Of a DNA stretch of 64,000 nt, positions 2,632-63,669 are shown in pieces (the stretch's first letter is position 1; each line of letters begins with the position of its first letter). Source of the stretch: Eledone cirrhosa (taxonomy: Eukaryota); contig OZ024745.1 in assembly GCA_964016885.1 (NCBI GenBank), positions 103,106,001 through 103,170,000 of the forward strand, in the 5' to 3' direction. The notes below the pieces were generated by a model. The model made no database searches and had not been told where the DNA came from. It worked only from the letters and a program-made list of their open reading frames with translations. A program made the translations under genes and the position numbers.

Positions 2632-3532
2632 TTAACCTGTTTTTTTGCGTGTGGCTGGGGGAGGAGCACCATACCATAACCATTAAATGAAGATATAACT
2701 TTTTTTACTCCAGCAATTACAAAAATAAACATGTGATCTGTAAGAAGAAAGGGAGTTAAAGGCAGCAATAAAAATACAAATTAATATTTTAAAGTGAAGG
2801 TAAACAATGATTAAGAGTAAATAATGAATAATTGTTTAATCTAATCAAATTCTTAGATTTATTTATAAGTATTTTAGCCATTTTTTTGTTTTGTTTTAGT
2901 AAAAATACTAATTCTCATTTATCAAGTTTATTCAAATTTTACTTTTTTTTCTTAAAGATTTCCTATCTGAAAAAAATAATAAATATAAACAAAGAATGAA
3001 TATGTCATATTTTGATAAACATCAAAATCTGATGTTTGAGTTTTTTTCTGTATAATCTGTGATTTTATAATAATCTGCAGTGACAAATAGTGTAAATATT
3101 GATTTGTAAACATTCACGCATTCAAGTAGGAGGAGTGTAAATGATTATATCGACACCTAGTACTTGATGGATTTTGATTTTATTATCAACTCATGCCTTT
3201 TTCAAGGACAGATGAAAGGCAATGTTAATATTAATGAAAATGGAACTCAGAATTTAGAGGGATGCAGTTAAATACTGCAAGGAATTTTGTTTAATTTTCT
3301 ACTAATTCTGCCAATACTCAACACTTAAAGAGTTGCCCCTTTCTCAACTTTGAGGACTTGAGCCTATCTTAGAAATCAATTATTCTGCTGCTGCTATGGA
3401 TGATGATGATGATGATGTATCAAAGAATGCAGCTATTATTAATTGCATGTGAAATGTGGACTCAGGCTATTGTTCAGTTATATAATTGTGTGAAGAAGTC
3501 AAAACATTATTTCAAGTTTATTTGTTATTTAT

Positions 3533-3690
3533 TTATATGAATGAGTCAGAACTCTGACAGCTGAGCTCTTGCCATTTCAACAGCTAGTTCCAGACTGGGG
3601 TCCTGACTCGTTCATATAACCATACTTTACTACCCCAAGTACTCTGGTGAGTAATGGCCTAACCAGCTTCTCACTGGATCCATCCTGATT
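3533..3690 (+). mobile_element. Diverged copy of hammerhead-remnant fold-back family H3
   Basis: Inverted arms 3533-3554/3597-3619; homologous by eye to 41019-41244 and 58703-58904. Confidence 0.65.
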
Positions 3691-11198: not shown

Positions 11199-11244
<46 letters not shown>

Positions 11245-11399
11245 TACAATAAATAGTCATTCAACAGTGTTGAATGACTATTTTTTGCATTTACAATATA
11301 CCATATATTTTGAATTAAGACTATATAGGTCGGTCCATCTTGGTGGGTTTTGATTGAAATATCAGACAAAATACTGCTGGACAATTGTTAGTGACCACC

Positions 11400-17582: not shown

Positions 17583-20500
17583 TCATCATCATCAACGTTT
17601 AACGTCCGTGTTCCACGCTTGCATGGGTTTGGACGGGGGTAGTCCCACTTGAGGCAAGAGTGGTTGTCTTGCTCGCATAGGACTGTCTGGCAGGTTTTCT
17701 ACAGTTGGATGCCCTTCCTAACACCAACCACATTTACAGTGTGGGGCTGGGAGGTTTTTACCGTGTTGCCTACACGGCCACATTACAGCGTGGACTGTGT
17801 GTTTTTTTGTCGTGACACCTACACGATCTCATTTATTTCGGCCTGGATGGCGCGGCACCAACATAACTTTACATAGAACGGGGTGGTGTGGATGGGGTGG
17901 GGGTGGTGGCGGGACGGGGTGTATTTTGTTAGGGATGCCTACTGGCAAGGCGGGTCTTCTCTGTTACTGAGTACCGCCAAAGGTCTCGGTCCAGTGACAT
18001 TGTCTTGGAGAGGTGTAAGTGTGTGAGGTCGGAGTTTATCAGCTCGTCCCAGGTTTTTCTAGGTCTGCCTATTCCGTGGCTACCGTCTATCTTTATTGCC
18101 CTGCACTTTGTTATACAGCTATCGACTTTCATGCGCATCACGTGTCCATACCAACGTAGCCTTCTCTCGAGTAAACAACATCTGATCCCTCTTATCTCTA
18201 ATTTTCTCCTTAGTTCGTTTATGCTTTGCCGTTCACGTATATTACTGTTACACATCCAGCGGAGCATGCAAGCTTCGTTCCTCTCTAGTCTGCGTATATC
18301 CTCTGCACACAATGCCCAGGTCTCACTGCCATGCAACATTGCTGTTCGTATGCAGGCATCGTACAACCTGCCTTTCATTTTTAGGGAGAACCCTTTAGCA
18401 GCTAATAGTGGTATAAGCTCTCTGAACTTTTTCCAACCAGTTCTGACTCTAGCTACAGTACTTTCAGAGCACCCTCCCCCACTGCTGATTTTATCACCCA
18501 GGTAACGGAAGCTGTCCACTATTTCTATAGAACCCTCTGCGCAATTGAAAGAGCTAGTATATTATGGGCACTTGCTGCTACTTATTGCACCAGAACACCG
18601 GCCACATGTAAAATCTATGTTCTTAGTTAGCTTACCTGTGATCCCACTACATCTTTTATGCACCCATACTTTGCATTTAGGACATAAAATGGAGTTTCTA
18701 CCTACGCCTTTCCTACACACCGAGCACGACCATTTCCCAGAAGGGACCGCCGCCTTGTTTTCTTTCTTACAAACTAGAACTTTGGTCTTAGCCAGGTTAA
18801 TTTTAAGTCCTTTTGACTCTAGGCCATGCTTCCATGTTTGGAATTTCTTCTCTAGCTCGGCCATTGATTCCGCTATGAGTGTCAGGTCGTCTGCGTATAG
18901 GAGTTCCCATGGGCAGCCTGTCTTGAACTCCTCTGTTATAGCCTGAAGGGCAATAATAAATAGTAGGGGGCTGAGAACAGAGCCCTGATGGACGCCAACT
19001 TTTACGCTAAACTCTTCACTATATTCGTTGTTAATTCTAACCTTGCTGACTGTTTCTTTATACATGGCTTGTATAGCCCTCACAAGCCATTCGTCAACGC
19101 CTAGTTTTCTAAGAGCCCACCAGATAATGGAGCAGGGGACTCTGTCGAAGGCTTTCTCCAGGTCGACAAAAGCTAAGTAGAGGGGTTTACCTTTAGCTAG
19201 GTACTTCTCCTGTAGTTGTCATACTATGAAAAGAGCGTCTGTGGTGCTTTTGCCTGACACAAACCCGAACTGCATTTCATCTAGGTCAATTCTCTCTCTG
19301 ATTAGTTGCGCTATTACTTTTTCCGTGACCTTCATGACCTGGTCGATTAATTTAATGCCTCTATAGTTACTCCTATCTAGGGCGTCTCCTTTACTCTTAT
19401 AACAGTTAACGATGATGCTGCTATGCCAGTCCTTCGGAACAACCCCATTCTGTACGACTTGGTTAACTATGCGGGTGACCATGGTGTGTCCCACCGTGCC
19501 AGATGCCTTCAGCATCTCAGCAACTATTTCCGAAGGCCCAGCCGCCTTACCCGTCTTCATATCCTTGATTGCCTTACTTATTATACTCCCCTCGACTAAC
19601 ACTGCTGGTCCCTCTATTGGGTCGATATGGGGGAGACTGTCTTTCTCCCATTTATTCTCCTCATTTAGTAGCCTTTCATAGTGACACTTCCAAGCTACCT
19701 TCTTATCAGTGTCGGTGATGGCAAGTATGCCATCATCGTTAAGTACACACTTCTCCCCGACAATATCACGGTTTTCCTTGACGCATTGCCTAGCAATCCT
19801 GAACACCTCACGTTTTTGGTCATCGCGTTGTAGAACATGCTTGAACTTTCTTTCCTCAGCTTCCCTTCTTGCTAAGTACACTTCTCTCCTAGCTTCCCTC
19901 CTGGCCACTTGATAGTCTACTCTACTTCCCCCATCCCGCCATACTTTCCAAGCCTGCTTTTTGGCCTTAATTGACCCCTCCACCTTACTGTTCCACCACC
20001 ATGTTACTCTCCTCCTGCCTACAGGCCTGCTCCAGCCACAGACTTCGTCTGTCGCCGTCAGCAGGTTTGCTTTCAGAAATTCCCACTGTCCCTCTATATT
20101 GTCCGACTCTAGATGCTCTTCCTTACTGTCGAAAGCATCAAGTAATATGCTTTGAAATTTATTTCTGGCTGTGGGGTCCTTTAGCTTCGATATTTTCCTC
20201 CTGAGGATAGTCCTCTTCTGCTGTCGAGTACGTCTCGTCCTGACTATGAGGTCGCTAATTATCAGTCTATGTTGGGAGGTGCATTCTTCATGGGGGAGGG
20301 ATTTAGTGTTTACAACAGACACTCTGTCACGTCTTCTGGTAAGGATATAATCTACCTGGCTTGTGTGTTCCCCGGATCTATAGGTGATCAGGTGATTGTC
20401 ACATTTTTTTAAGTTAGTGTTACAGATAGTTAGGTTATTTGCATCACAGAATTCCAGGATTCTGGAGCCTTCCTCATTTCTAGTACCAAACCCATAGCCT

Positions 20501-21126
20501 CCATGGATTTCATCGTAGCCGTCACAATGTTGTCCAACGTGACCATTTAGGTCGCCTGCAATAATTATATAGTCACTGTCAGATATTTGGGAGGTAGTTA
20601 GCAACAGTGTCTCATAGAATCTGTCTTTTATAGTGCCGGGCAGTCCGGATTGGTGTGCGTACGCAGATATTACTGTCACCGTAGTTCTATTGAGGACAAG
20701 TCGTATTTTAATTATTCTGTCGTTCACTCTATTTACGTCTATTATCTTATCTGTCCACTTTTCTGCTACCATGATTCCTACTCCACCCAGCCCATCGTCG
20801 TTTCCCACCCAGAAAAGCTTATAACATCGTTTTTTACCCTCAATGAATCTAGCAGACCCACCCCTCCACCTGGTCTCTTGAATACAACAAACATCGACCT
20901 CCTTACGTTCAAGCATTTCTACAACCTCGTTAGCACGACCCTTTAGGGTGCCTACATTTATGGTACCAACTCTGAAGTTTTGGATTGCGTTTGGAGGGTG
21001 GGGAGATGGGGTTATGTTAGCCATCCGCGGACGAAACAAAGAGGAGTGCTCGCATTCTCGTCCACGAGGTGAATTTGACTTTAACTTTGGCATTTTCGCT
21101 CTGAGCGTCCAGATTTTTCTCTCCCT
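17583..21126 (-). mobile_element. Near full-length RTE-clade LINE, subfamily A, inserted in (TA)n
   Basis: APE endonuclease, RT, PHD-type finger, RTE C-terminus, 3' UTR and (GAT)n tail. Confidence 0.96.
17929..21093 (-). pseudogene. RTE polyprotein (APE endonuclease + RT + PHD finger), one frame with two premature stops
   Basis: ORFs 19219..21405, 18562..19083 and 17929..18519 share a frame. Motifs: GTINVGTL, CIQETRW, GDLNGHVG, QVDYIL, SQHRL, NYRGI, FVDLEKAFDRV, QGSVLSPLLF, YADD. Stops are TGA at 19219 and TAA at 18562. Probable start is ATG 21093 or 21024. Confidence 0.95.
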
Positions 21127-21230
21127 ATAATATATATATATATATATAATATATATATATATAATATATATATATATAATATATATATATAATATATATA
21201 TATATATAGTATATATATATATAATATATA

Positions 21231-21268
<38 letters not shown>

Positions 21269-21449
21269 ATTATAAGTGTAAAGAGCAAATAGACAAAAAT
21301 ATACCTAACTTTTTCTTTAAAGTCCCATCTATACAAGTTTACCATTTGGTATGCAGTCAGCATGCAATTAAAATGCACTGGGGCTGTGAGGTTATTGGCT
21401 TGCAAAGAGTCTCCTCATATATATATATATATAAAACTGGGTTTAAGAG

Positions 21450-21857: not shown

Positions 21858-22207
21858 AGACATGGCTTAGTGGTTAGAGCATTGGGCTTGCAATCGAAAG
21901 GTTGTGAGTTCAATTCTCAGACCGGGTGATGTGTTGTTTCCTTGAGCAAAATACTTTATTCCACATTGCTCCAGTTTACTCAACTGTAGAAATGAGATGA
22001 TAGGACTGGAGTCCATATCATTCCACTGCAAAGTGGTCGTGGAGGTGCCACAGCAAAAAAGTACCCAGCACTCACTGTAAATAAGGTTGGTGTTGGGAAG
22101 GGCATCCAGCTGTAGAAATCAAGCCAGAATCAGTTCCCGTCCCACCCTTGCAAGCAGGGAAAAGCAGACGTAAAATGAAATGAAATGACGTAAAATGAAA
22201 TGATGAT
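21858..22207 (+). mobile_element. CORE-type tRNA SINE with RTE-derived tail, family B
   Basis: TGGCTTAGTGGTTAGAGC...GAGTTCAATTC head, CCTTGAGCAA...CTGTAGAAATGAG core, GGAAGGGCATCCAGCTGTAGAAA tail. Confidence 0.9.
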
Positions 22208-29530: not shown

Positions 29531-29907
29531 TTATATATATATATATATATGTATATATATAAAGGGTAGGATATTTAGACACAGAAAATAACTTTCAGAT
29601 ATGAGCTGACTGTTGTCAGTCATTATTTAGCTCACGGGTTAGAGCAGTGAGCTGGTATCTGAAAGATATGAAGTTCAATTCTTTGCAGTAACCACTGGCA
29701 ACTTTTGTTACATATATATAAGGGGTCTTTACCAACTGTATTTACAATATTTTTTTTAAATCCGAGTTTCCTACATTTTCTATGAGCCTCATAACCACTT
29801 AATATATATATGTGTGTGTGTGTAAAAGAGTGCTATACATATATACCTATATATATACATATATCAATGATATTAATAAATGGAAACTATATTTATAAAA
29901 CCATATT

Positions 29908-29968
29908 TATTCTATTATATATATTTCAAGGGTACCAAAATTTTGGTACGCTCTCATCAGATAAAATA
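29908..29968 (-). ncRNA. Minimal type-I hammerhead ribozyme (mirror copy)
   Basis: Exact reverse complement of 30097-30157. Confidence 0.75.
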
Positions 29969-30096
29969 CAGATCTTGTTTTATAAATATTGACATATCCA
30001 GGAATGAGACTTTAATGGTTCAAGTTTTACCTGGATAAAACTTGAACCGTTAAGGTCTCATTCCTGGATATGTCAATATTTATAAAACAAGCTCTG

Positions 30097-30157
30097 TATT
30101 TTATCTGATGAGAGCGTACCAAAATTTTGGTACCCTTGAAATATATATAATAGAATA
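30097..30157 (+). ncRNA. Minimal type-I hammerhead ribozyme
   Basis: TATTTTAT CTGATGA GAGcGTACCAAAATTTTGGTACcCTT GAAA TATATA TA|ATAGAATA. Intact core, 8-bp stem I, long stem II, palindromic stem III; predicted cleavage after 30149. Confidence 0.8.
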
Positions 30158-30290
30158 AATATGGTTTTATAAATATAGTTTCCATTTATTAATATCATTG
30201 ATATTATACTCCAGAAAACTTGTCGAGTGCTTCGAATCTGTTATAAATATATATATTTGTTGAATTACCAACAAATTAAATATCCCTTTG

Positions 30291-30328
<38 letters not shown>

Positions 30329-33955: not shown

Positions 33956-34346
33956 CATCATCATCACCGTTTTACGTACGTTCTTCCACGCTAGCATGGG
34001 TTAGACGGGTTGTCCTGTTGTGGGCAGTGTCCGGTCGGCTGACCTTGTCTTGCTCTTACGGGAACTGATTCTGGCTTGATTTTCTACAGCTGGATGCCTT
34101 TCCTAACACCAACCTCATTTACAGTGAGTGCTGGGTGCTTTTTTTTCCGTGGAACCTCCACAACCACTTTGCAGTGGAATCATAGGAACCCCAGTCCTAT
34201 CATCTCATTTCTACAGTTGAGTAAACTGGAGCAATGTGAAATAAAGTGTCTTGCTCAAGGAAACAACACATCACCCGCTCCGAGAATTGAACTCGCAACC
34301 TTTCGATTGCAAGCCCAATGCTCTAACCACTAAGCCATGCGCCTTC
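33956..34346 (-). mobile_element. CORE SINE carrying the RTE subfamily B 3' end
   Basis: Family B head and core; the tail matches 16330-16515. Confidence 0.9.
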
Positions 34347-40112: not shown

Positions 40113-40152
<40 letters not shown>

Positions 40153-40153
<1 letters not shown>

Positions 40154-40979
40154 ACGATAAATTAACGGAGCCATGGGCCCTCGCCATTCCCTGTAAATAA
40201 TGTGCTCAAAGGAGAAGAAATCCTGAGCTCTTTAAAATACAATATGTTGAAAAGGTAACACACCAGAGAGAGATATACAGTGTGCTATCAATAAAACAGG
40301 GAAAAAAAACACCAGTGTATGGAATCTATAACCTATGAAAGGCAGACTATAGACACGATAATTAAAAATATAAATTAAAGCGTAAATAAATACCTCTATA
40401 ACTATATAACACACGAGATGTTTCGCCAGTAATTTGTTGACAGAAATGGAATAACCCCGGTTCATCAGTGTGTGTAAGGCTATACATTTCAGACAACACT
40501 AAGAGAATTTTAAAAGTGACTGTCCAGCTACACGTGGGAGAGAGAAGTCACAGCGTGTTTAAGGGCAGTGAACCAGTGGCCTCTGAGGGACGAGCTGCTA
40601 GAAAGGGCAGCCCAAAACCACTCAGAGAAGTGTGCTCAACCAAACAATAAGGAGCGAAATATCACGATAAATTAACGGAGCCATAGGCCCTCGCCATTCC
40701 CTGGAAATAATGTGCTCAAAGGAGAAGAAATCCTGAGCTCTTTAAAATACAATATGTTGAAAAGGTAACACACCAGAGAGAGATATACAGTGTGCTATCA
40801 ATAAAACAGGGAAAAAACCACCAATGTATGGAATCTATAACCTATGAAAGGCAGACTATAGACACGTGTCTATAGTCTGCCTTTCATAGGTTATAGATTC
40901 CATACACTGGTGGTTTTTTCCCTGTTTTATTGATAGCACACTGTATATCTCTCTCTCTGGTGTGTTACCTTTTCAACAT

Positions 40980-40986
<7 letters not shown>
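40153..40986 (-). mobile_element. Fold-back insert H2: 510-bp unit present ~1.4 times plus a ~120-bp inverted arm, in (TA)n
   Basis: Direct repeat 40153-40357/40663-40866; loopless palindrome centred at 40865/40866 (arms 40747-40865/40866-40986). Confidence 0.85.
40409..40475 (-). ncRNA. Degenerate type-I hammerhead motif
   Basis: Minus strand: ACACACA CTGATGA aCCGG...CTGGc GAAA CATC TC GTGTGT. Core boxes are intact; stems I and III are imperfect. Confidence 0.55.
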
Positions 40987-41018
<32 letters not shown>

Positions 41019-41020
<2 letters not shown>

Positions 41021-41244
41021 CGAAGGAAATGTGGTAAGGAACCAGGTGGACCATAACGCACCAAAGTACTCAATACTTAGGGTAGTAGAGTGGGTAATAG
41101 GAACGAGTAGGACCCCGACGGCTGAGCTCAAGCCGTTTCGACGGCTAATTCTGGACTAAAATCTTAGTCCAGAATTATATAAAATTTTAGTCCAGAATTA
41201 GCCGTCGAAACGGCTTGAGCTCAGCCATCGGGGTCCTACTCGTT
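41019..41244 (-). mobile_element. Fold-back insert, family H3
   Basis: Arms 41102-41162/41184-41244; contains hammerhead 3' half GAAA CGGCT tgagctc AGCCG TC|GGGGTCC; (TA)n flanks. Confidence 0.85.
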
Positions 41245-41469
41245 ACTATATATATATATATAACTATATACACACACAAATACTCTGCTATTGCTGCAAA
41301 TTCCACCACCCTTAACACTAATTGATTTGATAGGTCAACAACCCAGTGATAACAACAATTCTATAGCCAGAGTCTGACAATTACCAGTCACTCATAAATC
41401 CCATTTGTATAGATATATACTTAGAATAAATGAACCCTTCAATAGTATGGGCATTTGTGTGAATGTGAA

Positions 41470-41645: not shown

Positions 41646-42002
41646 CACTGTAGAAGTTTGGTAGAAAAATCCACTTAGTTCTTAGGATGAGTTTAGTACA
41701 ATAATTACAAGTGTCATAAACAGGTACTTAAGTTTGGTTAGGATCTGGACCCCACATCATTCAGCCTGTCATAAGAGAAATAAAAATAAAGATGGCCGCC
41801 AGAGATTGATTATGATTTACTCTCAGAAATATAACTTTCTAAATTACCTGCCTTTGTTTAAACTCTTATGATATATTTCTGAGAGAAAATCACAATCAAC
41901 CTCCGGTGGCCATCTTTATTTTTATTTTTCTTATGACAGACTGAATGAGTTGGTGTCCAGAACAAATGGTTAAGTACCTGTTTATGTTACTGTTGTAATT
42001 AT
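41646..42002. mobile_element. Older fold-back insert in (TA)n, ~130-bp diverged arms
   Basis: Arms ~41701-41833/41871-42002; no ribozyme core recognised. Confidence 0.7.
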
Positions 42003-48081: not shown

Positions 48082-48388
48082 TCATCATTTCATTTTACGT
48101 CTGCTTTTTCCCTGCTTGCAAGGGTGGGATAGGAACTGATTCTGGCTTGATTTCTACAGCTGAATGCCCTTCCTAACACCAACCTCATTTACAGTGAGTG
48201 CTGGGTGCTTTTTAGCCGTGGCACCTCCACGTCCACTTTACATCTCATTTCTACAGCTGAGTAAACTGGAGCAATGTGAAATAAAGTGTCTTGCTCAAGG
48301 AAACAACACATCACCCAGTCTGAGAATTGAACTCACAACCTTTCGATTGCAAGGCCAATGCTCTAACCACTAAGCCATGTGCCTTCAT
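48082..48388 (-). mobile_element. Family B CORE SINE
   Basis: Matches 45104-45443 with a small internal deletion. Confidence 0.92.
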
Positions 48389-48601: not shown

Positions 48602-48850
48602 GTGTGTCTGTATGATTGTGTGTCTGTATGTCAGTCAGTATGTCCAGCTGTCTGTCTGTCTGCCTGCCTGTCTGTCTGCATGCCTGCCTGTCTGTCTGTC
48701 TGCTTGCATTTCTGTCTGCCAGCTTGTCTATCTGCCTGCTTACCTGTCTACCTCTCTGTCTGCCTGTCTGCCTGCCTGTATGTCCATCTGTCCATCTGTC
48801 ATCTATATATATTTATCCATCCATCTGTCTATCTAGCTATCTATTTATTT
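48602..48850. repeat. (TCTG)n/(CCTG)n/(TCTA)n low-complexity tract
   Basis: Seen directly. Confidence 0.9.
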
Positions 48851-48854
48851 TATT

Positions 48855-51800
48855 CGGGTCAATGCGGCCGGACTTCTTCCATCGTCTGGAGACTTTTCTA
48901 GGGACGTCCCGCTCCTTGCTATTAGTGGGGGACTGGAATGGTATCCTAGATGCACGCTGGGACTACGTAGGGGCCTGCCCCGATAGAGAGGGGTGTAATA
49001 GCCTCAAAGGGTTTATCGGTCGATTTGACCTGGCCGATAGATATCGACTAGATTTTCCGACTGCGCCAACCTGGACTTGGGCAAATCGTAGCGGATCATC
49101 TAGGTCGTACCTAGATAGGTTCTTAGTTAGAATTAAGGATAAGGACTTTTTAAGTTGTCCAAAAATGCGCATGGTTGGCTATTCAGACCACAAATTAGTG
49201 ACCTGCATGGTCAACCTTGACAGAACTCATAGACAGGGCCCCGGTTACTGGAAGCTCAACTTGTCCTTGCCGGCAAGTAGAGCCTACAGGAATCGGATTA
49301 GTACGTTAGTTAAGGAACGGTTGACTGGAGCGATCGTCAACAGCAGGTGGTGGGTATCTCTAAAGAGAGAGATTAGATTAGTCTCGATAGAATTTAGTAA
49401 GGTTCTAGCTGCGGATAGGAATAGGAAGGAAAGGGAGCTAATAGATAGAGTAGAAGAAGCAATTAGAAGCGGCGACGTGGCCAGAGTGCTAGCGTCGAGA
49501 ACGGCTTTGAGCCAGTTTTTCGACGCGAAGCACGAAGGCTGCGTTGTCCGAAGTAAAATACGTGCTCTAGGGAACGAGGGGACCAAAGCTGTTAGCTGGG
49601 CCCGCGTGACAGAGGCCAACAGTGGAACTAAATCCACCATCCGGTCTTTGCGAGACCTGGATGGACGGGCGATTCTTGAGCCTAAGCAGATGTGTGAGGC
49701 CTTTCAAAGGCACTTTGCCTGACTGTTCGGGAGGGGCGGGGAGCCGGTTGGGAACGTGGACTTCGGTCCATACCTCGACGGCCTGCCGCGCCTCTCGGAC
49801 AGGGAGGCGAAGTCCTGCGAGGAGCCGATTTCGGCCGCTGAGATAGAGGACGTGCTGAGCCAATGCGGCAAACGCAAATCCCCGGGTCTCGATGGTCTTC
49901 CTTACGAATTATATCTAGCTATGCCGGACTTGTTCCCCGATCTCCTCGAGGCGGTCTACTGCAACTGGCAACAGAACGGGAGAATTCCCTGTACTGTGAC
50001 CAAGGGCGTAGTCACGCTAGTGAGGAAGGACGAGAACAAGGGGGACGAAATAAGTAACTTCAGGCCCATAACACTGCTAAATACAGAGTTACAGATTTTG
50101 GCCAAGGTGCTAGCAAAGAGGTTGGCGCTTGTCGTGGGCAACCTGGTGGGAGATGCGCAGACATGCGCTATCCCGTCCAGGTCCATCCATGACAACCTCC
50201 ACCTCATGCGATACATCATAGAGAGGGTTGGGAACGAACCCGGCTTTGGTGGGGCTCTGATCAACTTGGATCAATCTAAGGCGTTCGATAGGGTCGACCA
50301 TGGTTACCTGGATGCGGTGCTAGCGGCGGCAGGCTTCGGACCCGTTTTCAGGGGCTGGATCACTGCTATGCACAGCAGCCGCATCTGCTCTAGGGTCAAG
50401 GTGAACGGCTACCTCTCGGAGCCGTTCAAAATCGCGCGGTCCATCCGACAAGGGTGCCCTCTCTCCTCCCTTCTGTATGTGTTGACTCTCGAGCCACTAC
50501 TGCGGAAGTTGGAGTTGTTGCAGGGCATCCCTTTGGAACCGGGATTGCGGAAAGCGGTGTCGGCCTACGCCGATGACGTGACAGTAATGGTGTCGACGGC
50601 CTCCGAAATCGAGGCGGTCGGCACCTTACTGGAGGAGTACGAAAAGTTCACAGGGGCTAAGCTGAACCGGGACAAGTCGATCGGTTTGCAACTCGGCACG
50701 TGGAGGGGCAGACCGATGCCCACCGATGGCGTCGTCGGACGCTGGACGGAGGGCCCGGTGAAGTTGCTCGGGGTCTGGTTCGGACCGGACCTCCAGGTGG
50801 AGAAAAACTGGGCGGAGGTTACGAACAGGGTGTTTGCACTGACCCAGAAGTGGGCCAGTTGCAAACTATCCCTGAAAGGTCGGGCGGAGGTGGCGAACAC
50901 CTACATAGCGTCCGTCATCTACTACCGCCTGACCGTAGTGCCCTGCCCAAGGGAAACCCTCACCAAGATGGAGCGCGCGCTCTTCCAATTCCTTTGGAAG
51001 AGGCGGGCTCCTATGGTGAGGAGATCCATCTGCTGTCAACACCCTTCGAAAGGAGGGCTGGGGATGCCGTGGCTAATGATGCGTAAAAACGCATTAAGGC
51101 TACGGCACCTCTACGTATTCCTCACCGGACAACCGGTGTGGGCCTCGTTTGTGAGACGAACCTTTCCCAGACTCGTCTCACTCACCGAGCTGCAATCCTG
51201 GGTCAAGCAAAGACCGAGAAAACTGGGCGCCTGGCACACTGAGTGTGCCCAGGCGCTCACCGCCCTCTGGCAGGCGGATCCGGTTATCAGTGGAGACTCC
51301 ACCGCAACATTCTATAGAGGGCTGGTACGCAGCAGGTGCGACAACGCCCTCGGAGAAGCCCTAGACATGGAGGAGGACGAACTGGCCAGCCTGTTCGGTA
51401 GGACATTCAGCCCGGGACCTATGGACAACTTCTAGAAGTCCCTGGCCTGGCAGTGCTACCGAGGGGCTTTACCCGTTCGAGAAAGGCTCTACAGACACGG
51501 GCGCCCGGGTAGGGACCCCGCCAAAAAGATCTGTCCCAGATGCGTGTGCGACGAGGAAACCGTTGCACACGCATTGGTACACTGCTCGGGCGTAGCCGAT
51601 CTGTGGGGCTATGTCGAACAACTGCTGTCAAGGGTGGGACCGATCCGGTTGACCACCGAGTCTATTGTAATGATCAAGCCGCCTCCCCCCTTCAAAGATG
51701 AAGCAGAGGCGGTGTTTCTGTGCGTAATAGCCATGGCGAAAGAGGTTGTATGGTGGACGCGTCTGAAAGGACTGAGGTCAGGCACCTTTCTCTCTGGCCA

Positions 51801-52212
51801 ACAACTGGTCCGTTTCTTCCGATATCATTTCGGAAGAAGGATCAGGATGGAGAGAGAGGTGCTGCACCCCAGCCGTTTCTATGAAAGATGGGTGAAAGTG
51901 GCGAGAATGGCCCGTGTGAATGGGCCTTCACTCTACATCAGACTATAGGTGAGGAAGATGAAAGACCAAGGGAGCACCCCTTCTCTGTGCTCCTGAGGAG
52001 AAGGGTTGCACACTTTTTTCGGGGGTGTGTGCGACCCCCCAAGGCGCCTCCTCTCTATTGAGGATTTTGTTAAAAATTTTATTTTTTGTTATATCTTATT
52101 TTATTTTTATATTTTGTTATTGCCTCCTCCTTATTGAGGACGCCTTTTTGTGTAAACTCCCCCCTTTGTACTTGTCCCACTTTTGATGCCCTAGTGGCAA
52201 ATAAAAGAAACA
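48855..52212 (+). mobile_element. 5'-truncated L1/Tx1-clade LINE with 17-bp TSD
   Basis: TSD TATCTATTTATTTTATT at 48838-48854 and 52213-52229; GC- and CpG-rich relative to flanks. Confidence 0.93.
48856..51948 (+). pseudogene. Tx1-type ORF2 (partial APE endonuclease, RT, C-terminal CCHC), two in-frame stops
   Basis: GDWN, YLDRFL, SDHKLV, GPGYWKLN, KSPGLDGL, NFRPITLLN, LDQSKAFDRV, RQGCPLS, YADDV, CPRC..EETVAHALVHC, all in one frame. Stops are TGA 49720 and TAG 51433. Confidence 0.94.
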
Positions 52213-57025: not shown

Positions 57026-58200
57026 GATAATAATAATAATGAAATTATTGTGTACAGTGCTCTTGTGCATTACAACTCATCAAAGGTGCATGTATAGTAC
57101 ATAGAATAATGTACAAATATCAGGAAAATGAACAGTGTGTGAGTCATGAAATACATGTGTGCGTGTGTATGGGGGAGGGATATCAGATATAGTGTTGGCG
57201 AATCTCAGGAAGCATGGAGATTTTAAAGGATGCAGTGTCTCGACAACTAATAACTGATACAGGTAGTTTGTTCCATGCTTCAGCAACTCTGAGCATGAAA
57301 AAATGTTTCCAAAAGTCATGGGGGCTGTGCTGTTTTCTGACTTTGTTGGCATGCCCATGTGTGTTAAACACATGGAAATCAAAAAGGTGCTCAAGGTTGT
57401 TGTTGCGAGATGGTTAATAATTTTGTGGGTGTTTACCAAGTCAGTTGCCAGATGTCGGAGCTTCAATGTATCCATGCCCAGGGAAGCAAAGCGTTCAGAG
57501 TATGGTAGATGCCTGATGGAGGGTATTTGCTTGGTTGCACGTCTCTGAACAGTTTCCAGGCGATCAATGTTCTGAGCAAGATAGGGGTTCCAGACTGGTG
57601 ATGCAAATTCTAAGTGTGGCTGCACCATAGCTATATACAGCTTTAAATAGATAGCTGGAGAGTGGCTGACAAAGGTCTTGCTGAGTGATGCTAAGACACC
57701 CTCGGCCTTCTTGACAATTTTAGAGACGTGCTTCATCCAATGCAAATCGCTGCTGACAGTAATGACCAGGTCGCGTTCACAAGAAGACTTCTTGATATTA
57801 GTGTTGTGGAGGGAGTATGTGGACGCTGGGTTTTTACTCCCAAAATGCATGGTGGTACACTTATCCACAGCCAACTTGAGTTGCCAGTCCGTGATCCATT
57901 GCTGCATTGTGTCCAGGTCAGATTGCAGGAAAGATCTATAGTGTTCAGGATCTGTCCATTTTATCTCAAGGTACAGCTTGATGTCATCTGCATATTTCAG
58001 TACTGTGACATTCTTTAATTTGGCACCTATGTCATTAATATATGCCACAAACAAGCATGGGCCAAGAACAGATCCATGTGCTACACCAGATGACATCTCA
58101 TACGGTGAGGAATGCTGTCCTAGAACTGTAACTACCTCTCTTCGACTGAAAATGAAGGACTTCAACCAGTTAAAAAGATCATCCTTCAACACCCATTTCA
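57010..58200 (-). mobile_element. 5'-truncated CR1/L2-group LINE (RT remnant)
   Basis: SGVAHGSVLGP, YADDIKLY, ERDL, PHLEFASPVWNPY, LETVQRRATK, then a frameshift into FFMLRVAEAWNKLP; (ATT)n tail. Confidence 0.9.
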
Positions 58201-58202
58201 TA

Positions 58203-58276
<74 letters not shown>

Positions 58277-58281
<5 letters not shown>

Positions 58282-58640
58282 AGAAAACGAAAAATCAGTG
58301 ATGCATCTGGACTTAGTTTATTTTGTGTTACAAATGTTTCGCCGGCATGTAGCTCGAGTCATGGTCCTTGTATGGATCTGGCTGATTCTACTTCTGATAA
58401 AATTTGCTCCGGACATAACATCCGTGTCTGAAAGAACCTGCAGAAGTAGAATCTGCCAGATCTATACAAGGACCATGACTCGAGCTACATGCCGGCAAAA
58501 GATTTGTAACACAAAATAAACTAAGTTCAGATGCATCACTGATTTTTCGTTTTCTTGATAATATCTACACTCTACTCTGATGAATATCAAGTGCTAATTT
58601 TGGCATACCGCCTACGGAAGCACCATAGCTACCTCTATAC

Positions 58641-58645
<5 letters not shown>
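58277..58645 (+). mobile_element. Fold-back insert H4 with 120-bp arms, in (TA)n
   Basis: Arms 58277-58396/58441-58560 with 5 mismatches; 44-nt spacer; unique 3' extension. Confidence 0.85.
58424..58512 (+). ncRNA. Degenerate hammerhead with long stem II insert
   Basis: GTGT CTGAAAGA aCCtGCA...TGCcGGc AAAA GATTTG TA|ACAC; the inverted arm preserves GAAA CATTTG TA. Confidence 0.5.
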
Positions 58646-58702: not shown

Positions 58703-58904
58703 ATAGGAATGAGTAGGACCCCGACGGCTGAGCTCAAGCCGTTTCGACGGCTAATTCTGGACTAATAGTCCAGAATTAGTCGTCGAAATGGCTTGAGCTC
58801 AGCCGTCGGGGTCCTACTCGTTCCTATTACCCACTCTACTACCCTAAGTATTGAGTACTTTGGTGCGTTATGTCCACTTGGTTCCTTACCACATTTCCTT
58901 TGTT
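58703..58904 (+). mobile_element. Fold-back insert, family H3
   Basis: 62-bp arms 58703-58764/58766-58827 with a 1-nt loop; (TA)n flanks. Confidence 0.85.
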
Positions 58905-59423
58905 ATATATATATATATATATATACACATACATATATGTGTATCTATATATATACTACCACCCAGTAAATTAGTAACATTGGGGCCCACAATAAAATGT
59001 ACCCACTACATTCTGTAAAATAGCAACCATACCAATATATGAAATATATGAAAATCATTCTTCAGCCCATTTAGTCTCAGACAGTGATGATCTGTACAAT
59101 CCTTGCCTGCATGGAAATACTGGTGCAAAACTATAATGATAATGAGGAAATATATATATATGTGTGTGTGTGTGTGTGTATGATCATAAGAGATTGTAGT
59201 CCTGGAATCATAATTTGTGCAAATTTGGGAATTATGAGTGATGAATGATTGTTTCATGTGTCTTAGCTTTGTCTCTTCCCATCTTCATTGCTGAGGGTTA
59301 GAGACCATAAATAATTGTACCGTTGCTCATTGTTTTATCTATATATTACTACTATGTAGGGCTACATTTGATATTTACTTCACTTCTATTTTAATTTAAT
59401 CAAAAAGATATACTTTATCAAAC

Positions 59424-63040: not shown

Positions 63041-63067
63041 ATATATATATATATATATATATATACA

Positions 63068-63288
63068 TAATGAAGGAGTTGTGGTAAGGAACCAGATGGA
63101 CCATAACACACCAGAGTACTCAATACTTAGTAGTATTGAGTACTCTGGTGTGTAGTGTAGTAGAGTGGGTAATAGGAGAAAGTACGACCCGGACGGTAGA
63201 GTTCAAGCTGTTTCGATGGCTATTTCTGGACTAAAGTAAGAGTTTTTAGTCTGGTAAGTAAATTACTTACGAGACTAAAAACTCTTAC
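63068..63288 (-). mobile_element. Family H3 copy with two short fold-backs
   Basis: Palindromes at 63106-63127/63132-63153 and 63236-63261/63263-63288. Confidence 0.75.
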
Positions 63289-63336: not shown

Positions 63337-63669
63337 ATCATCATCATTTTACGTCCGCTTTTCCCTGCTTGCAAGGGTGGGACAGGAACTGATTCTGGCT
63401 TGATTTCTACAGCTAGATGCCCTTCCTAACACCAACCTCATTTACAGTGAGTGCTGGGTGCTTTTTTTCCGTGGCGTCTACACGACCACTTTGCAGTGGA
63501 ATGATAGGGACCCCAGTCCAATCATCTCATTTCTACAGCTGAGTAAACTGGAACAATGTGAAATAAAGTATCTTGCTCAAGGAAACAACGCATCACCCGG
63601 TCTGAGAATTGAACTCACAACCTTTCGATTGCAAGCCCAATGCTCTAACCACTAAGCCATGTGCCTCCA
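63337..63669 (-). mobile_element. Family B CORE SINE
   Basis: Full copy. Confidence 0.92.

What the first reader, a model, noticed from the sequence alone, without database searches (positions are those of the whole stretch)
29861..30293. Intact minimal hammerhead duplicated on both strands of a 169-bp-arm palindrome
Seen: complete CUGAUGA/GAAA core, 8-bp stem I (one G-U), stem II closing on GTACCAAAA/TTTTGGTAC, palindromic TATATA stem III and an AUA cleavage triplet, identical in both arms. Established: such short palindromic stem IIIs usually cleave as dimers. Inference: transcription through the locus in either direction gives a long hairpin RNA that would sequester the ribozyme and could feed dsRNA pathways (ADAR editing, small RNAs).
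Basis: partly seen in the sequence, partly recalled or inferred. Interest (0 to 1): 0.75.

Follow-up and report, generated by a model that had tools for sequence, protein, structure and literature searches.

The report
Penelope retrotransposon stub with mirrored hammerhead
The palindrome and its hammerhead ribozyme motif are real, but they are likely the ordinary stub left when a Penelope-like jumping gene inserts, one member of an abundant repeat family, and any read-through RNA is predicted to fold into a long hairpin that keeps the ribozyme off.

Summary
Confirmed: 169-nt head-to-head arms (3 differences, 6-nt spacer), each holding the same minimal type I hammerhead motif, beyond chance. 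That is the published insertion structure of Penelope-like elements (pseudo-LTR, inverted 5'-truncated copy, one-sided tail, minimal hammerhead); opposite-strand hammerhead pairs 100-700 bp apart were reported in 2014. At least four more such palindromes lie in this window. No RT/endonuclease ORF was found, so membership is inferred. 'Intact' is overstated: the core-closing stem II pair is G·U, not G-C; cleavage is untested. Sequestration in a hairpin is predicted in both directions; transcription of this locus is not shown. Two leads from relatives: 2 of 3 head-to-head junctions seen start at the predicted cut site, and one run of unrecorded kind shows editing-like A>G excess. Both have ordinary rivals. 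The scan has found this architecture before in other genomes. Interest low.

The parts
29834..29860 (.). TA-rich left flank (likely insertion target; no target-site duplication can be resolved)
   Evidence: sequence
29861..30029 (-). left arm: inverted, 5'-truncated copy of the element end, stopping at the shorter 3' end (equivalent of 30204)
   Evidence: relatives' contigs leave the reference at 30187-30196 into AT-rich letters (table 7)
29908..29968 (-). hammerhead motif of the left arm, predicted cut 29916/29915
   Evidence: mirror axis
30030..30035 (.). 6-nt non-palindromic spacer at the head-to-head junction
30036..30204 (+). right arm: direct copy of the pseudo-LTR-like element end
30076..30176 (+). 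13-bp helix 30076-30088/30164-30176 that extends stem I; holds 3 of the 5 strongest A>G excess sites of run X4, with a fourth at 30177
30097..30157 (+). minimal type I hammerhead motif: stem I 30097-30104/30150-30157; core 30105-30111 and 30138-30141; stem II 30112-30137; palindromic stem III 30141-30148; predicted cut 30149/30150
30205..30292 (+). 88-nt one-sided tail (family sequence, present on the right arm only)
   Evidence: covered by family contigs in runs X1, X4 and in part X5
30293..30324 (.). (TA)16 microsatellite, right flank

Best explanation
This is most likely a short, dead-end insertion of a Penelope-like retroelement family: the ribozyme-bearing end of the element plus an inverted, truncated copy of it, likely made in the same insertion event, landed in a TA microsatellite. 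Shown: head-to-head arms, one-sided tail, TA flanks, a hammerhead motif in each arm, and an abundant dispersed family. Inferred mechanism: an RT/GIY-YIG protein supplied by an autonomous relative nicks TA-rich DNA and starts reverse transcription at two sites on the element RNA (the ends at 30204 and 30292; the 88 nt between them is the tail); two cDNAs primed from the two nicked strands, or one cDNA that folds back on itself, stop near the same 5' point (30030-30036) and are joined head to head. The hammerhead is cargo of the pseudo-LTR; in the parent element it would cleave poorly, as a dimer or with protein help. At this locus a read-through RNA in either direction would make the antisense arm first and is predicted to bury the ribozyme in a 169-bp hairpin, a likely ADAR/small-RNA substrate if the locus is transcribed; one transcript never carries two sense ribozymes.
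For: Structure matches the published one point by point: inverted 5'-truncated copy at the 5' end, tail at one end only, hammerhead in the pseudo-LTR, microsatellite bias (PMC8557442); head-to-head palindromic junctions and optional tail (PMC3846280); dual minimal hammerheads 100-700 bp apart on opposite strands (PMC4209133); both strands nicked and extended from two start sites that delimit the tail (PMC11167929). Family: 7,926 contigs of run X1 and 694 of X4 lay on 30030-30292, and a 118-nt piece with 4 differences lies in another organism's run X5. 107 X1 contigs in the four rows shown leave the reference at 30187-30196 into AT-rich letters, near where the left arm stops. Other copies invert elsewhere (30036/30150 in X1; 30061/30149 in X5), so the palindrome is not a fixed unit. 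Both arms share minority alleles of the family (G30091, 7%; C30094, 9%; G30153, 30%), as expected from one source copy. At least four more TA-flanked palindromes with one-sided 77-88-nt tails lie in the window, one with the partial tandem too.
Against: No RT or GIY-YIG ORF of this family was found: no genome is held, Pfam on 150 window ORFs gave no GIY-YIG, and the ATG inside the core opens only 16 codons. The tail is 88 nt, not the 30-40 nt described. No target-site duplication or empty site was seen. The window's own junction was not among the joints listed (the laid stretch began at the spacer). No partial tandem in this copy. The route that makes the inverted arm is unsettled in the literature itself.
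Confidence: 0.88

Rival explanations
1. A host-selected two-strand ribozyme switch or dsRNA locus.
For: Motif unchanged in both arms; very stable hairpin; editing-like A>G excess on family sequence in run X4.
Against: Arms are only 1.8% diverged, so an unchanged 61-nt motif needs no selection; same architecture recurs several times in 64 kb from unrelated families; no exon or transcript tied to the locus; the antisense-first order leaves the ribozyme no folding window.
Confidence: 0.03
2. A palindromic non-autonomous DNA element (MITE or fold-back) that captured a hammerhead and moves as a unit.
For: Long near-perfect inverted repeat with TA at both ends; high copy number.
Against: One-sided 88-nt tail breaks terminal symmetry; relatives invert at other positions (tables 5 and 8); depth is very uneven along the arm.
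Confidence: 0.04
3. A monomer of a non-LTR retrozyme-like, non-autonomous family mobilised by Penelope proteins.
For: No ORF seen; type I hammerhead; retrozymes are argued to derive from pseudo-LTRs (10.64898/2026.07.22.740005). Partly overlaps the best explanation.
Against: Retrozymes are head-to-tail tandem repeats (PMC7229834); no tandem unit here; among the joints listed none joins the 3' end back to the 5' end (one contig shows a short go-back, 30161 to 30130).
Confidence: 0.1
4. An assembly or library fold-back artefact.
For: Own junction not listed; palindromes are a known artefact class (own knowledge).
Against: Three arm differences (one at a CpG), a non-palindromic spacer, different flanks and a one-sided tail; similar head-to-head joints occur in contigs of two other runs.
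Confidence: 0.02

Closest known systems
Insertion units of endonuclease-positive Penelope-like elements (Penelope/Poseidon, Neptune, Nematis, Hydra clades; PMC8557442 Fig. 2 legend, PMC3846280)
   Same: Head-to-head inverted 5'-truncated copy, one-sided tail, hammerhead in the repeat, TA/AT-rich target without clear duplication, many dispersed truncated copies.
   Different: No ORF or partial tandem in this copy; tail 88 nt instead of 30-40; clade not determined.
Minimal type I hammerheads of metazoan Penelope-like elements (PMC4209133)
   Same: Conserved core, long stem II, tiny palindromic stem III suited to dimers, pairs on opposite strands within 100-700 bp.
   Different: 10.1-11.1 is G·U (A-U in 55% of family depth) rather than G-C; no clear unpaired base between 9 and 10.1; stem I is 8 bp plus a 13-bp extension rather than 4-5 bp.
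PAc (Poseidon, green anole; PMC11167929)
   Same: ATG embedded at the core/stem II border; two 3' ends that define a tail downstream of the ribozyme; AT-rich target.
   Different: There the ATG opens the RT-EN frame; here it closes after 16 codons. Cut-to-end distances 55 and 143 nt here against about 85-92 nt for the main start there.
Non-LTR retrozymes (PMC7229834)
   Same: Small non-coding unit with a type I hammerhead in an animal genome.
   Different: Retrozymes are head-to-tail tandem arrays with mostly canonical ribozymes; this is a head-to-head pair with a tail.

Membership tests
Endonuclease-positive Penelope-like element | ORF with telomerase-like RT and GIY-YIG endonuclease | not testable with these tools
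   Fragment of 432 bp; no genome held; no GIY-YIG among 150 window ORFs scanned; metagenome scans gave no relative.
Endonuclease-positive Penelope-like element | Inverted 5'-truncated copy joined head to head at the 5' end | tested here: met
   similar joints in relatives.
Endonuclease-positive Penelope-like element | Tail at one end only | tested here: met
   30205-30292 on the right arm only; longer (88 nt) than the 30-40 nt described.
Endonuclease-positive Penelope-like element | Hammerhead motif in the pseudo-LTR | tested here: met
Endonuclease-positive Penelope-like element | Dispersed, mostly truncated copies in AT-rich or microsatellite targets | tested here: met
   (7,926 contigs; loose ends into AT-rich letters); flanks.
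Endonuclease-positive Penelope-like element | Partial tandem forming direct pseudo-LTRs (usual, not obligatory) | tested here: not met
   No direct copy in this insertion or elsewhere in the window; present in the unrelated neighbour at 40149-40986.
Minimal type I hammerhead ribozyme | Core boxes and UH cleavage site in order | tested here: met
   none of the 28 of 31 X1 family variants that I could place falls in the 13 core positions, weak on its own (about 0.1 by chance, hand calculation).
Minimal type I hammerhead ribozyme | Stems I and II and a short palindromic stem III | tested here: met
   8 and 10 pairs, 8-nt palindrome.
Minimal type I hammerhead ribozyme | G10.1-C11.1 closing pair (highly conserved per PMC4209133) | tested here: not met
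   G·U here; A-U in 55% and U·U in 7% of X1 depth. Filed as a variant motif that likely works like the class, not as a proven ribozyme.
Minimal type I hammerhead ribozyme | Covariation of stems among copies | tested here: inconclusive
   Stem I and III variants keep pairs but are one-sided A/G changes; one loose-end consensus (11 contigs in X4) shows a two-sided U-A to C-G change in stem II; other stem II variants break pairs unless linked, and linkage was not visible.
Minimal type I hammerhead ribozyme | Mg-dependent self-cleavage | not testable with these tools
   Needs bench work.
Rfam hammerhead families | Covariance-model match | tested here: not met
   No hammerhead family.
Non-LTR retrozyme | Head-to-tail tandem units of 150-450 bp | tested here: not met
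MITE / fold-back DNA element | Symmetric terminal inverted repeats, fixed unit across copies | tested here: not met
   One-sided tail; other inversion points in relatives.

The most novel reading that the evidence does not exclude
In this family the hammerhead cuts in living cells and the cut RNA is used as template, so that genomic copies and inversion junctions pile up exactly at the cleavage site: a fossil record of in vivo activity for a Penelope ribozyme, which the papers read say has not been shown, in a family whose RNA is also A-to-I edited along the extended stem I. Basis: 2 of the 3 head-to-head junctions seen (X1 30036/30150, X5 30061/30149; not this locus) have an arm starting within 1 nt of the cut (0.002-0.005 by chance, post hoc). 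Rival: the TA run of stem III ends at the same base and is a ready target for the element's own endonuclease.
Probability: 0.2. Interest if true: 0.55.

Novelty: new member of a known kind. Interest (0 to 1): 0.15.

Why it matters
As it stands, little: it adds one more Penelope-type stub to a known pattern and explains a share of the long perfect hairpins in this genome. It would matter if the family-wide survey showed copies starting at the cut site beyond what the TA run explains, because the in vivo role of Penelope hammerheads is an open question (PMC8557442, PMC11167929), and an abundant young family would make it testable by counting junctions.

Tried and rejected
Own genome: none held. 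Sequencing runs: no RNA holder listed; 4 of 13 listed runs were laid; X7 gave 2 contigs at depth 2-3 and was not used; table 6 (places where many molecules begin or end) was empty, which contigs cannot decide; no loose-end row at 30141-30150 was among the 15 shown (250 hidden), so mass truncation at the cut site is not shown, and the depth step between 30132 and 30145 is equally explained by divergent stem II sequences. Rfam: only tRNA-like SINE hits at gathering level; the miRNA matches over the hairpin are all below their gathering scores and reflect any long hairpin. Metagenome scans: 0 hits; 65 hits to a looser pattern, 0 of 65 with both stems, best alignments E 0.006: chance. Host gene: 150 of 194 high-complexity ORFs of 52 aa or more scanned (43 inside LINE spans and 1 more left out); only RVT_1 passed a Pfam cut-off; short exons would be missed. 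The two A/G differences between the arms are not template editing: G is the family state and the left arm's A is private (all 5 G>A rows of X1 are shown, neither position is among them). Bacterial promoter scan: at chance level and not applicable to an animal. The 2017 paper on dimeric cleavage of Penelope hammerheads could not be read; it is cited only through a review. Earlier scan notes: none for this sequence or genome.

Full report
Observation. The inverted repeat is as described: arms 29861-30029 and 30036-30204, 169 nt, 6-nt spacer, 3 differences in 169. Each arm holds the same 61-nt type I hammerhead motif, 30097-30157 on + and 29968-29908 on -, both pointing outward from the centre. 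The bare core pattern is common by chance (6 matches, 2.96 expected), but a descriptor with stems finds only these two in the window and, at their stem lengths, in 0 of 200 shuffles. Rfam does not recognise the motif. Two details need correcting. The palindrome quoted for stem II is the tip of that stem; the pair next to the core is G30112·U30137, not the G10.1-C11.1 pair that PMC4209133 calls highly conserved, and a C×C mismatch follows three pairs later. Stem III is an 8-nt AU palindrome, 30141-30148.

Surroundings. The right arm continues for 88 nt (30205-30292) that have no mirror on the left and ends at (TA)16; the left arm ends in TA-rich sequence. The window is AT-rich animal DNA full of microsatellites, LINE ORFs and tRNA-derived SINE copies; it resembles what I recall of octopus genomes, which I did not test. 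No host exon was found, so transcription through the locus is not shown. A self-comparison shows the same build at other places: head-to-head arms, a 77-88-nt tail on one side, TA at both ends, at 40149-40986 (with a partial tandem and a degenerate hammerhead-like core on the minus strand), 41020-41249 and 58703-58905 (one family, different centres) and 58269-58645.

The family. No genome is held, so I used public runs: 13 listed, 4 laid on 30030-30292 at 80% likeness. In X1 (same organism label as X4, 95% of words held) 7,926 contigs lay on the stretch; summed depth is 0.5-0.8 million over the core and 3.4 million at 30165-30173, against 6-12 for the single contigs listed. The tool warns that this is no copy number; even divided by 31 for overlapping short contigs it implies on the order of a thousand copies or more (my inference). 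In the four rows shown, 107 X1 contigs leave the reference at 30187-30196 into AT-rich letters, close to where the left arm stops, while the tail is also covered at lower depth: two 3' ends. Other copies invert at other points: 30036 joined to 30150 on opposite strands (2 contigs, X1) and 30061 to 30149 (1 contig, X5, another organism label). Both arms of our copy share minority alleles (G30091 7%, C30094 9%, G30153 30%), so both came from one source copy; at 30049 and 30054 the left arm carries the private letter. Of 31 X1 variants at 3% or more I could place 28 (12 table rows were hidden); none is in the 13 core positions, which is weak evidence (about 0.1 by chance within the motif, hand calculation). 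Stem I variants (30152 A>G 29%, 30153 G>A 70%), 30112 G>A (55%) and 30145 A>G (17%, a wobble in the dimer) keep their pairs but are one-sided; 30112 G>T (7%), 30116 G>A (6%) and 30122 A>T (29%) break pairs unless linked; one loose-end consensus shows a two-sided change at 30117/30132. Covariation is therefore inconclusive.

Folding. The whole palindrome folds at -257.5 (+) or -250.9 (-) kcal/mol; enforcing the hammerhead costs about 80. In either direction the antisense arm is made first, so the ribozyme has no folding window, and no transcript holds two sense copies. Closing stem III in a monomer is unfavourable (-7.6 against -11.1); the stem III dimer scores -27.8, but a dimer through this copy's stem II palindrome is better (-33.8). 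So weak, dimer- or protein-dependent cleavage at best (inference).

Comparison with what is known. PMC8557442 (passages) describes 5'-truncated insertions with an adjacent inverted truncated copy, a 30-40-bp tail at one end, hammerheads in pseudo-LTRs, microsatellite bias, and says the ribozyme's function is unclear. PMC3846280 (passages) reports abundant head-to-head inverted structures, the optional tail, self-priming as a likely origin, and small RNAs against Penelope. PMC4209133 (parts 1-2 of 4; figures and supplements not seen) defines the minimal motif, notes pairs 100-700 bp apart on opposite strands, and finds no monomer and low dimer activity. PMC11167929 (parts 1-2 of 4; the 3 supplements held as text gave no hits; Fig. 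S2 not seen) shows nicking and extension of both strands at AT-rich DNA, two internal RT starts that delimit the tail, a protein-assisted ribozyme, and no RNA-seq reads ending at the cut. PMC6765202 (passages) reviews dimer cleavage; the primary 2017 paper was not held. Editing of Penelope RNA is reported in lizard (PMC5625713, passages) and Xenopus tropicalis (PMC10636886, passages). PMC2377424 (passages), PMC7229834 (passages) and 10.64898/2026.07.22.740005 (part 1 of 5) cover inverted repeats and promoter, retrozymes, and their descent from pseudo-LTRs. Every structural feature and both dsRNA inferences thus have precedent. What differs: the 88-nt tail, the non-G-C closing pair, the long stem I extension. 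The defining ORF could not be tested, so membership is inferred from architecture.

Mechanism. Most likely (0.88) an insertion by-product: a trans-acting Penelope-type protein nicked a TA run, reverse transcription began at two sites on the element RNA, the products stopped near 30030-30036 and were joined head to head, either as two cDNAs from the two nicked strands or by fold-back copying; these steps are inferred from the papers above, not shown here. With arms 1.8% apart the event is young, and an unchanged motif needs no selection.

Two leads. (a) Two of the three head-to-head junctions seen have an arm that starts within 1 nt of the predicted cut (0.002-0.005 by chance, post hoc). Searches listed no paper reporting such an excess. 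(b) Run X4 (same study, other sample, kind not on record, 88 million letters) shows, among 38 tabulated rows, 6 with a more than fivefold excess over X1 in 8 or more contigs: 5 are A>G (30076 7%, 30132 36%, 30169 31%, 30175 41%, 30177 22%, against 0.03-0.8%; four with a 5' U) and 1 is T>C; 6 further excess rows of mixed kinds rest on 1-3 contigs. This looks like A-to-I editing of family RNA if X4 is an RNA run, but no DNA of the same individual is established, a few expressed loci could mimic it, and it cannot be tied to this locus.

Verdict. Real, well above chance, and explained: a likely Penelope-type pseudo-LTR stub with its inverted copy. New member of a known kind; interest 0.15. The scan has described the same architecture in other genomes (e1-7858806, e1-9995956).

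Noticed in passing
window 40149-40986: A fuller Penelope-type unit of another family: 208-bp direct repeats (40149-40357, 40659-40866) in partial tandem on the minus strand, an inverted 120-bp copy at 40867-40986, an 88-nt one-sided tail, TA at both ends, and a degenerate hammerhead-like core at 40468-40421 (-).
   Followed up: partly
window 41020-41249, 58703-58905, 63064-63288, 3526-3596: One family of short TA-flanked elements; two copies are head-to-head palindromes with different centres and the same 77-78-nt tail on one side; they keep only a GAAAC-bearing half of a possible hammerhead.
   Followed up: partly
window 58269-58645; 41701-42002; 11226-11308: Further TA-flanked palindromes, older; 58269-58645 has a 78-nt one-sided tail. 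Tails in this genome run 77-88 nt in four families, longer than the 30-40 nt in print.
   Followed up: partly
window 30145 and 30152 (family variants): A>G variants at UA sites are common in the genomic pool (17%, 29%) and higher still in run X4 (62%, 66%); edited RNA retrotransposed back into the genome would give this pattern, as would plain subfamily structure.
   Followed up: no
window 30030-30037 and 30063-30070: The spacer plus the next 2 bases repeat 8 nt found 33 nt downstream inside the arm, possibly a template slip at the junction.
   Followed up: no
window 29588-29682: Degenerate tRNA-derived SINE-like stretch framed by a short imperfect inverted repeat, 200 bp left of the finding.
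   Followed up: no
window 17929-21414 (-), 48616-51948 (+), 57080-58294 (-): LINE retrotransposon ORFs (endonuclease and RT), the first two near full length with in-frame stops; unrelated to the finding.
   Followed up: no
window 21863-21920, 34280-34337, 48316-48379, 63602-63659: Four near-identical tRNA-like heads of a SINE family (Rfam tRNA, 30-31 bits).
   Followed up: no
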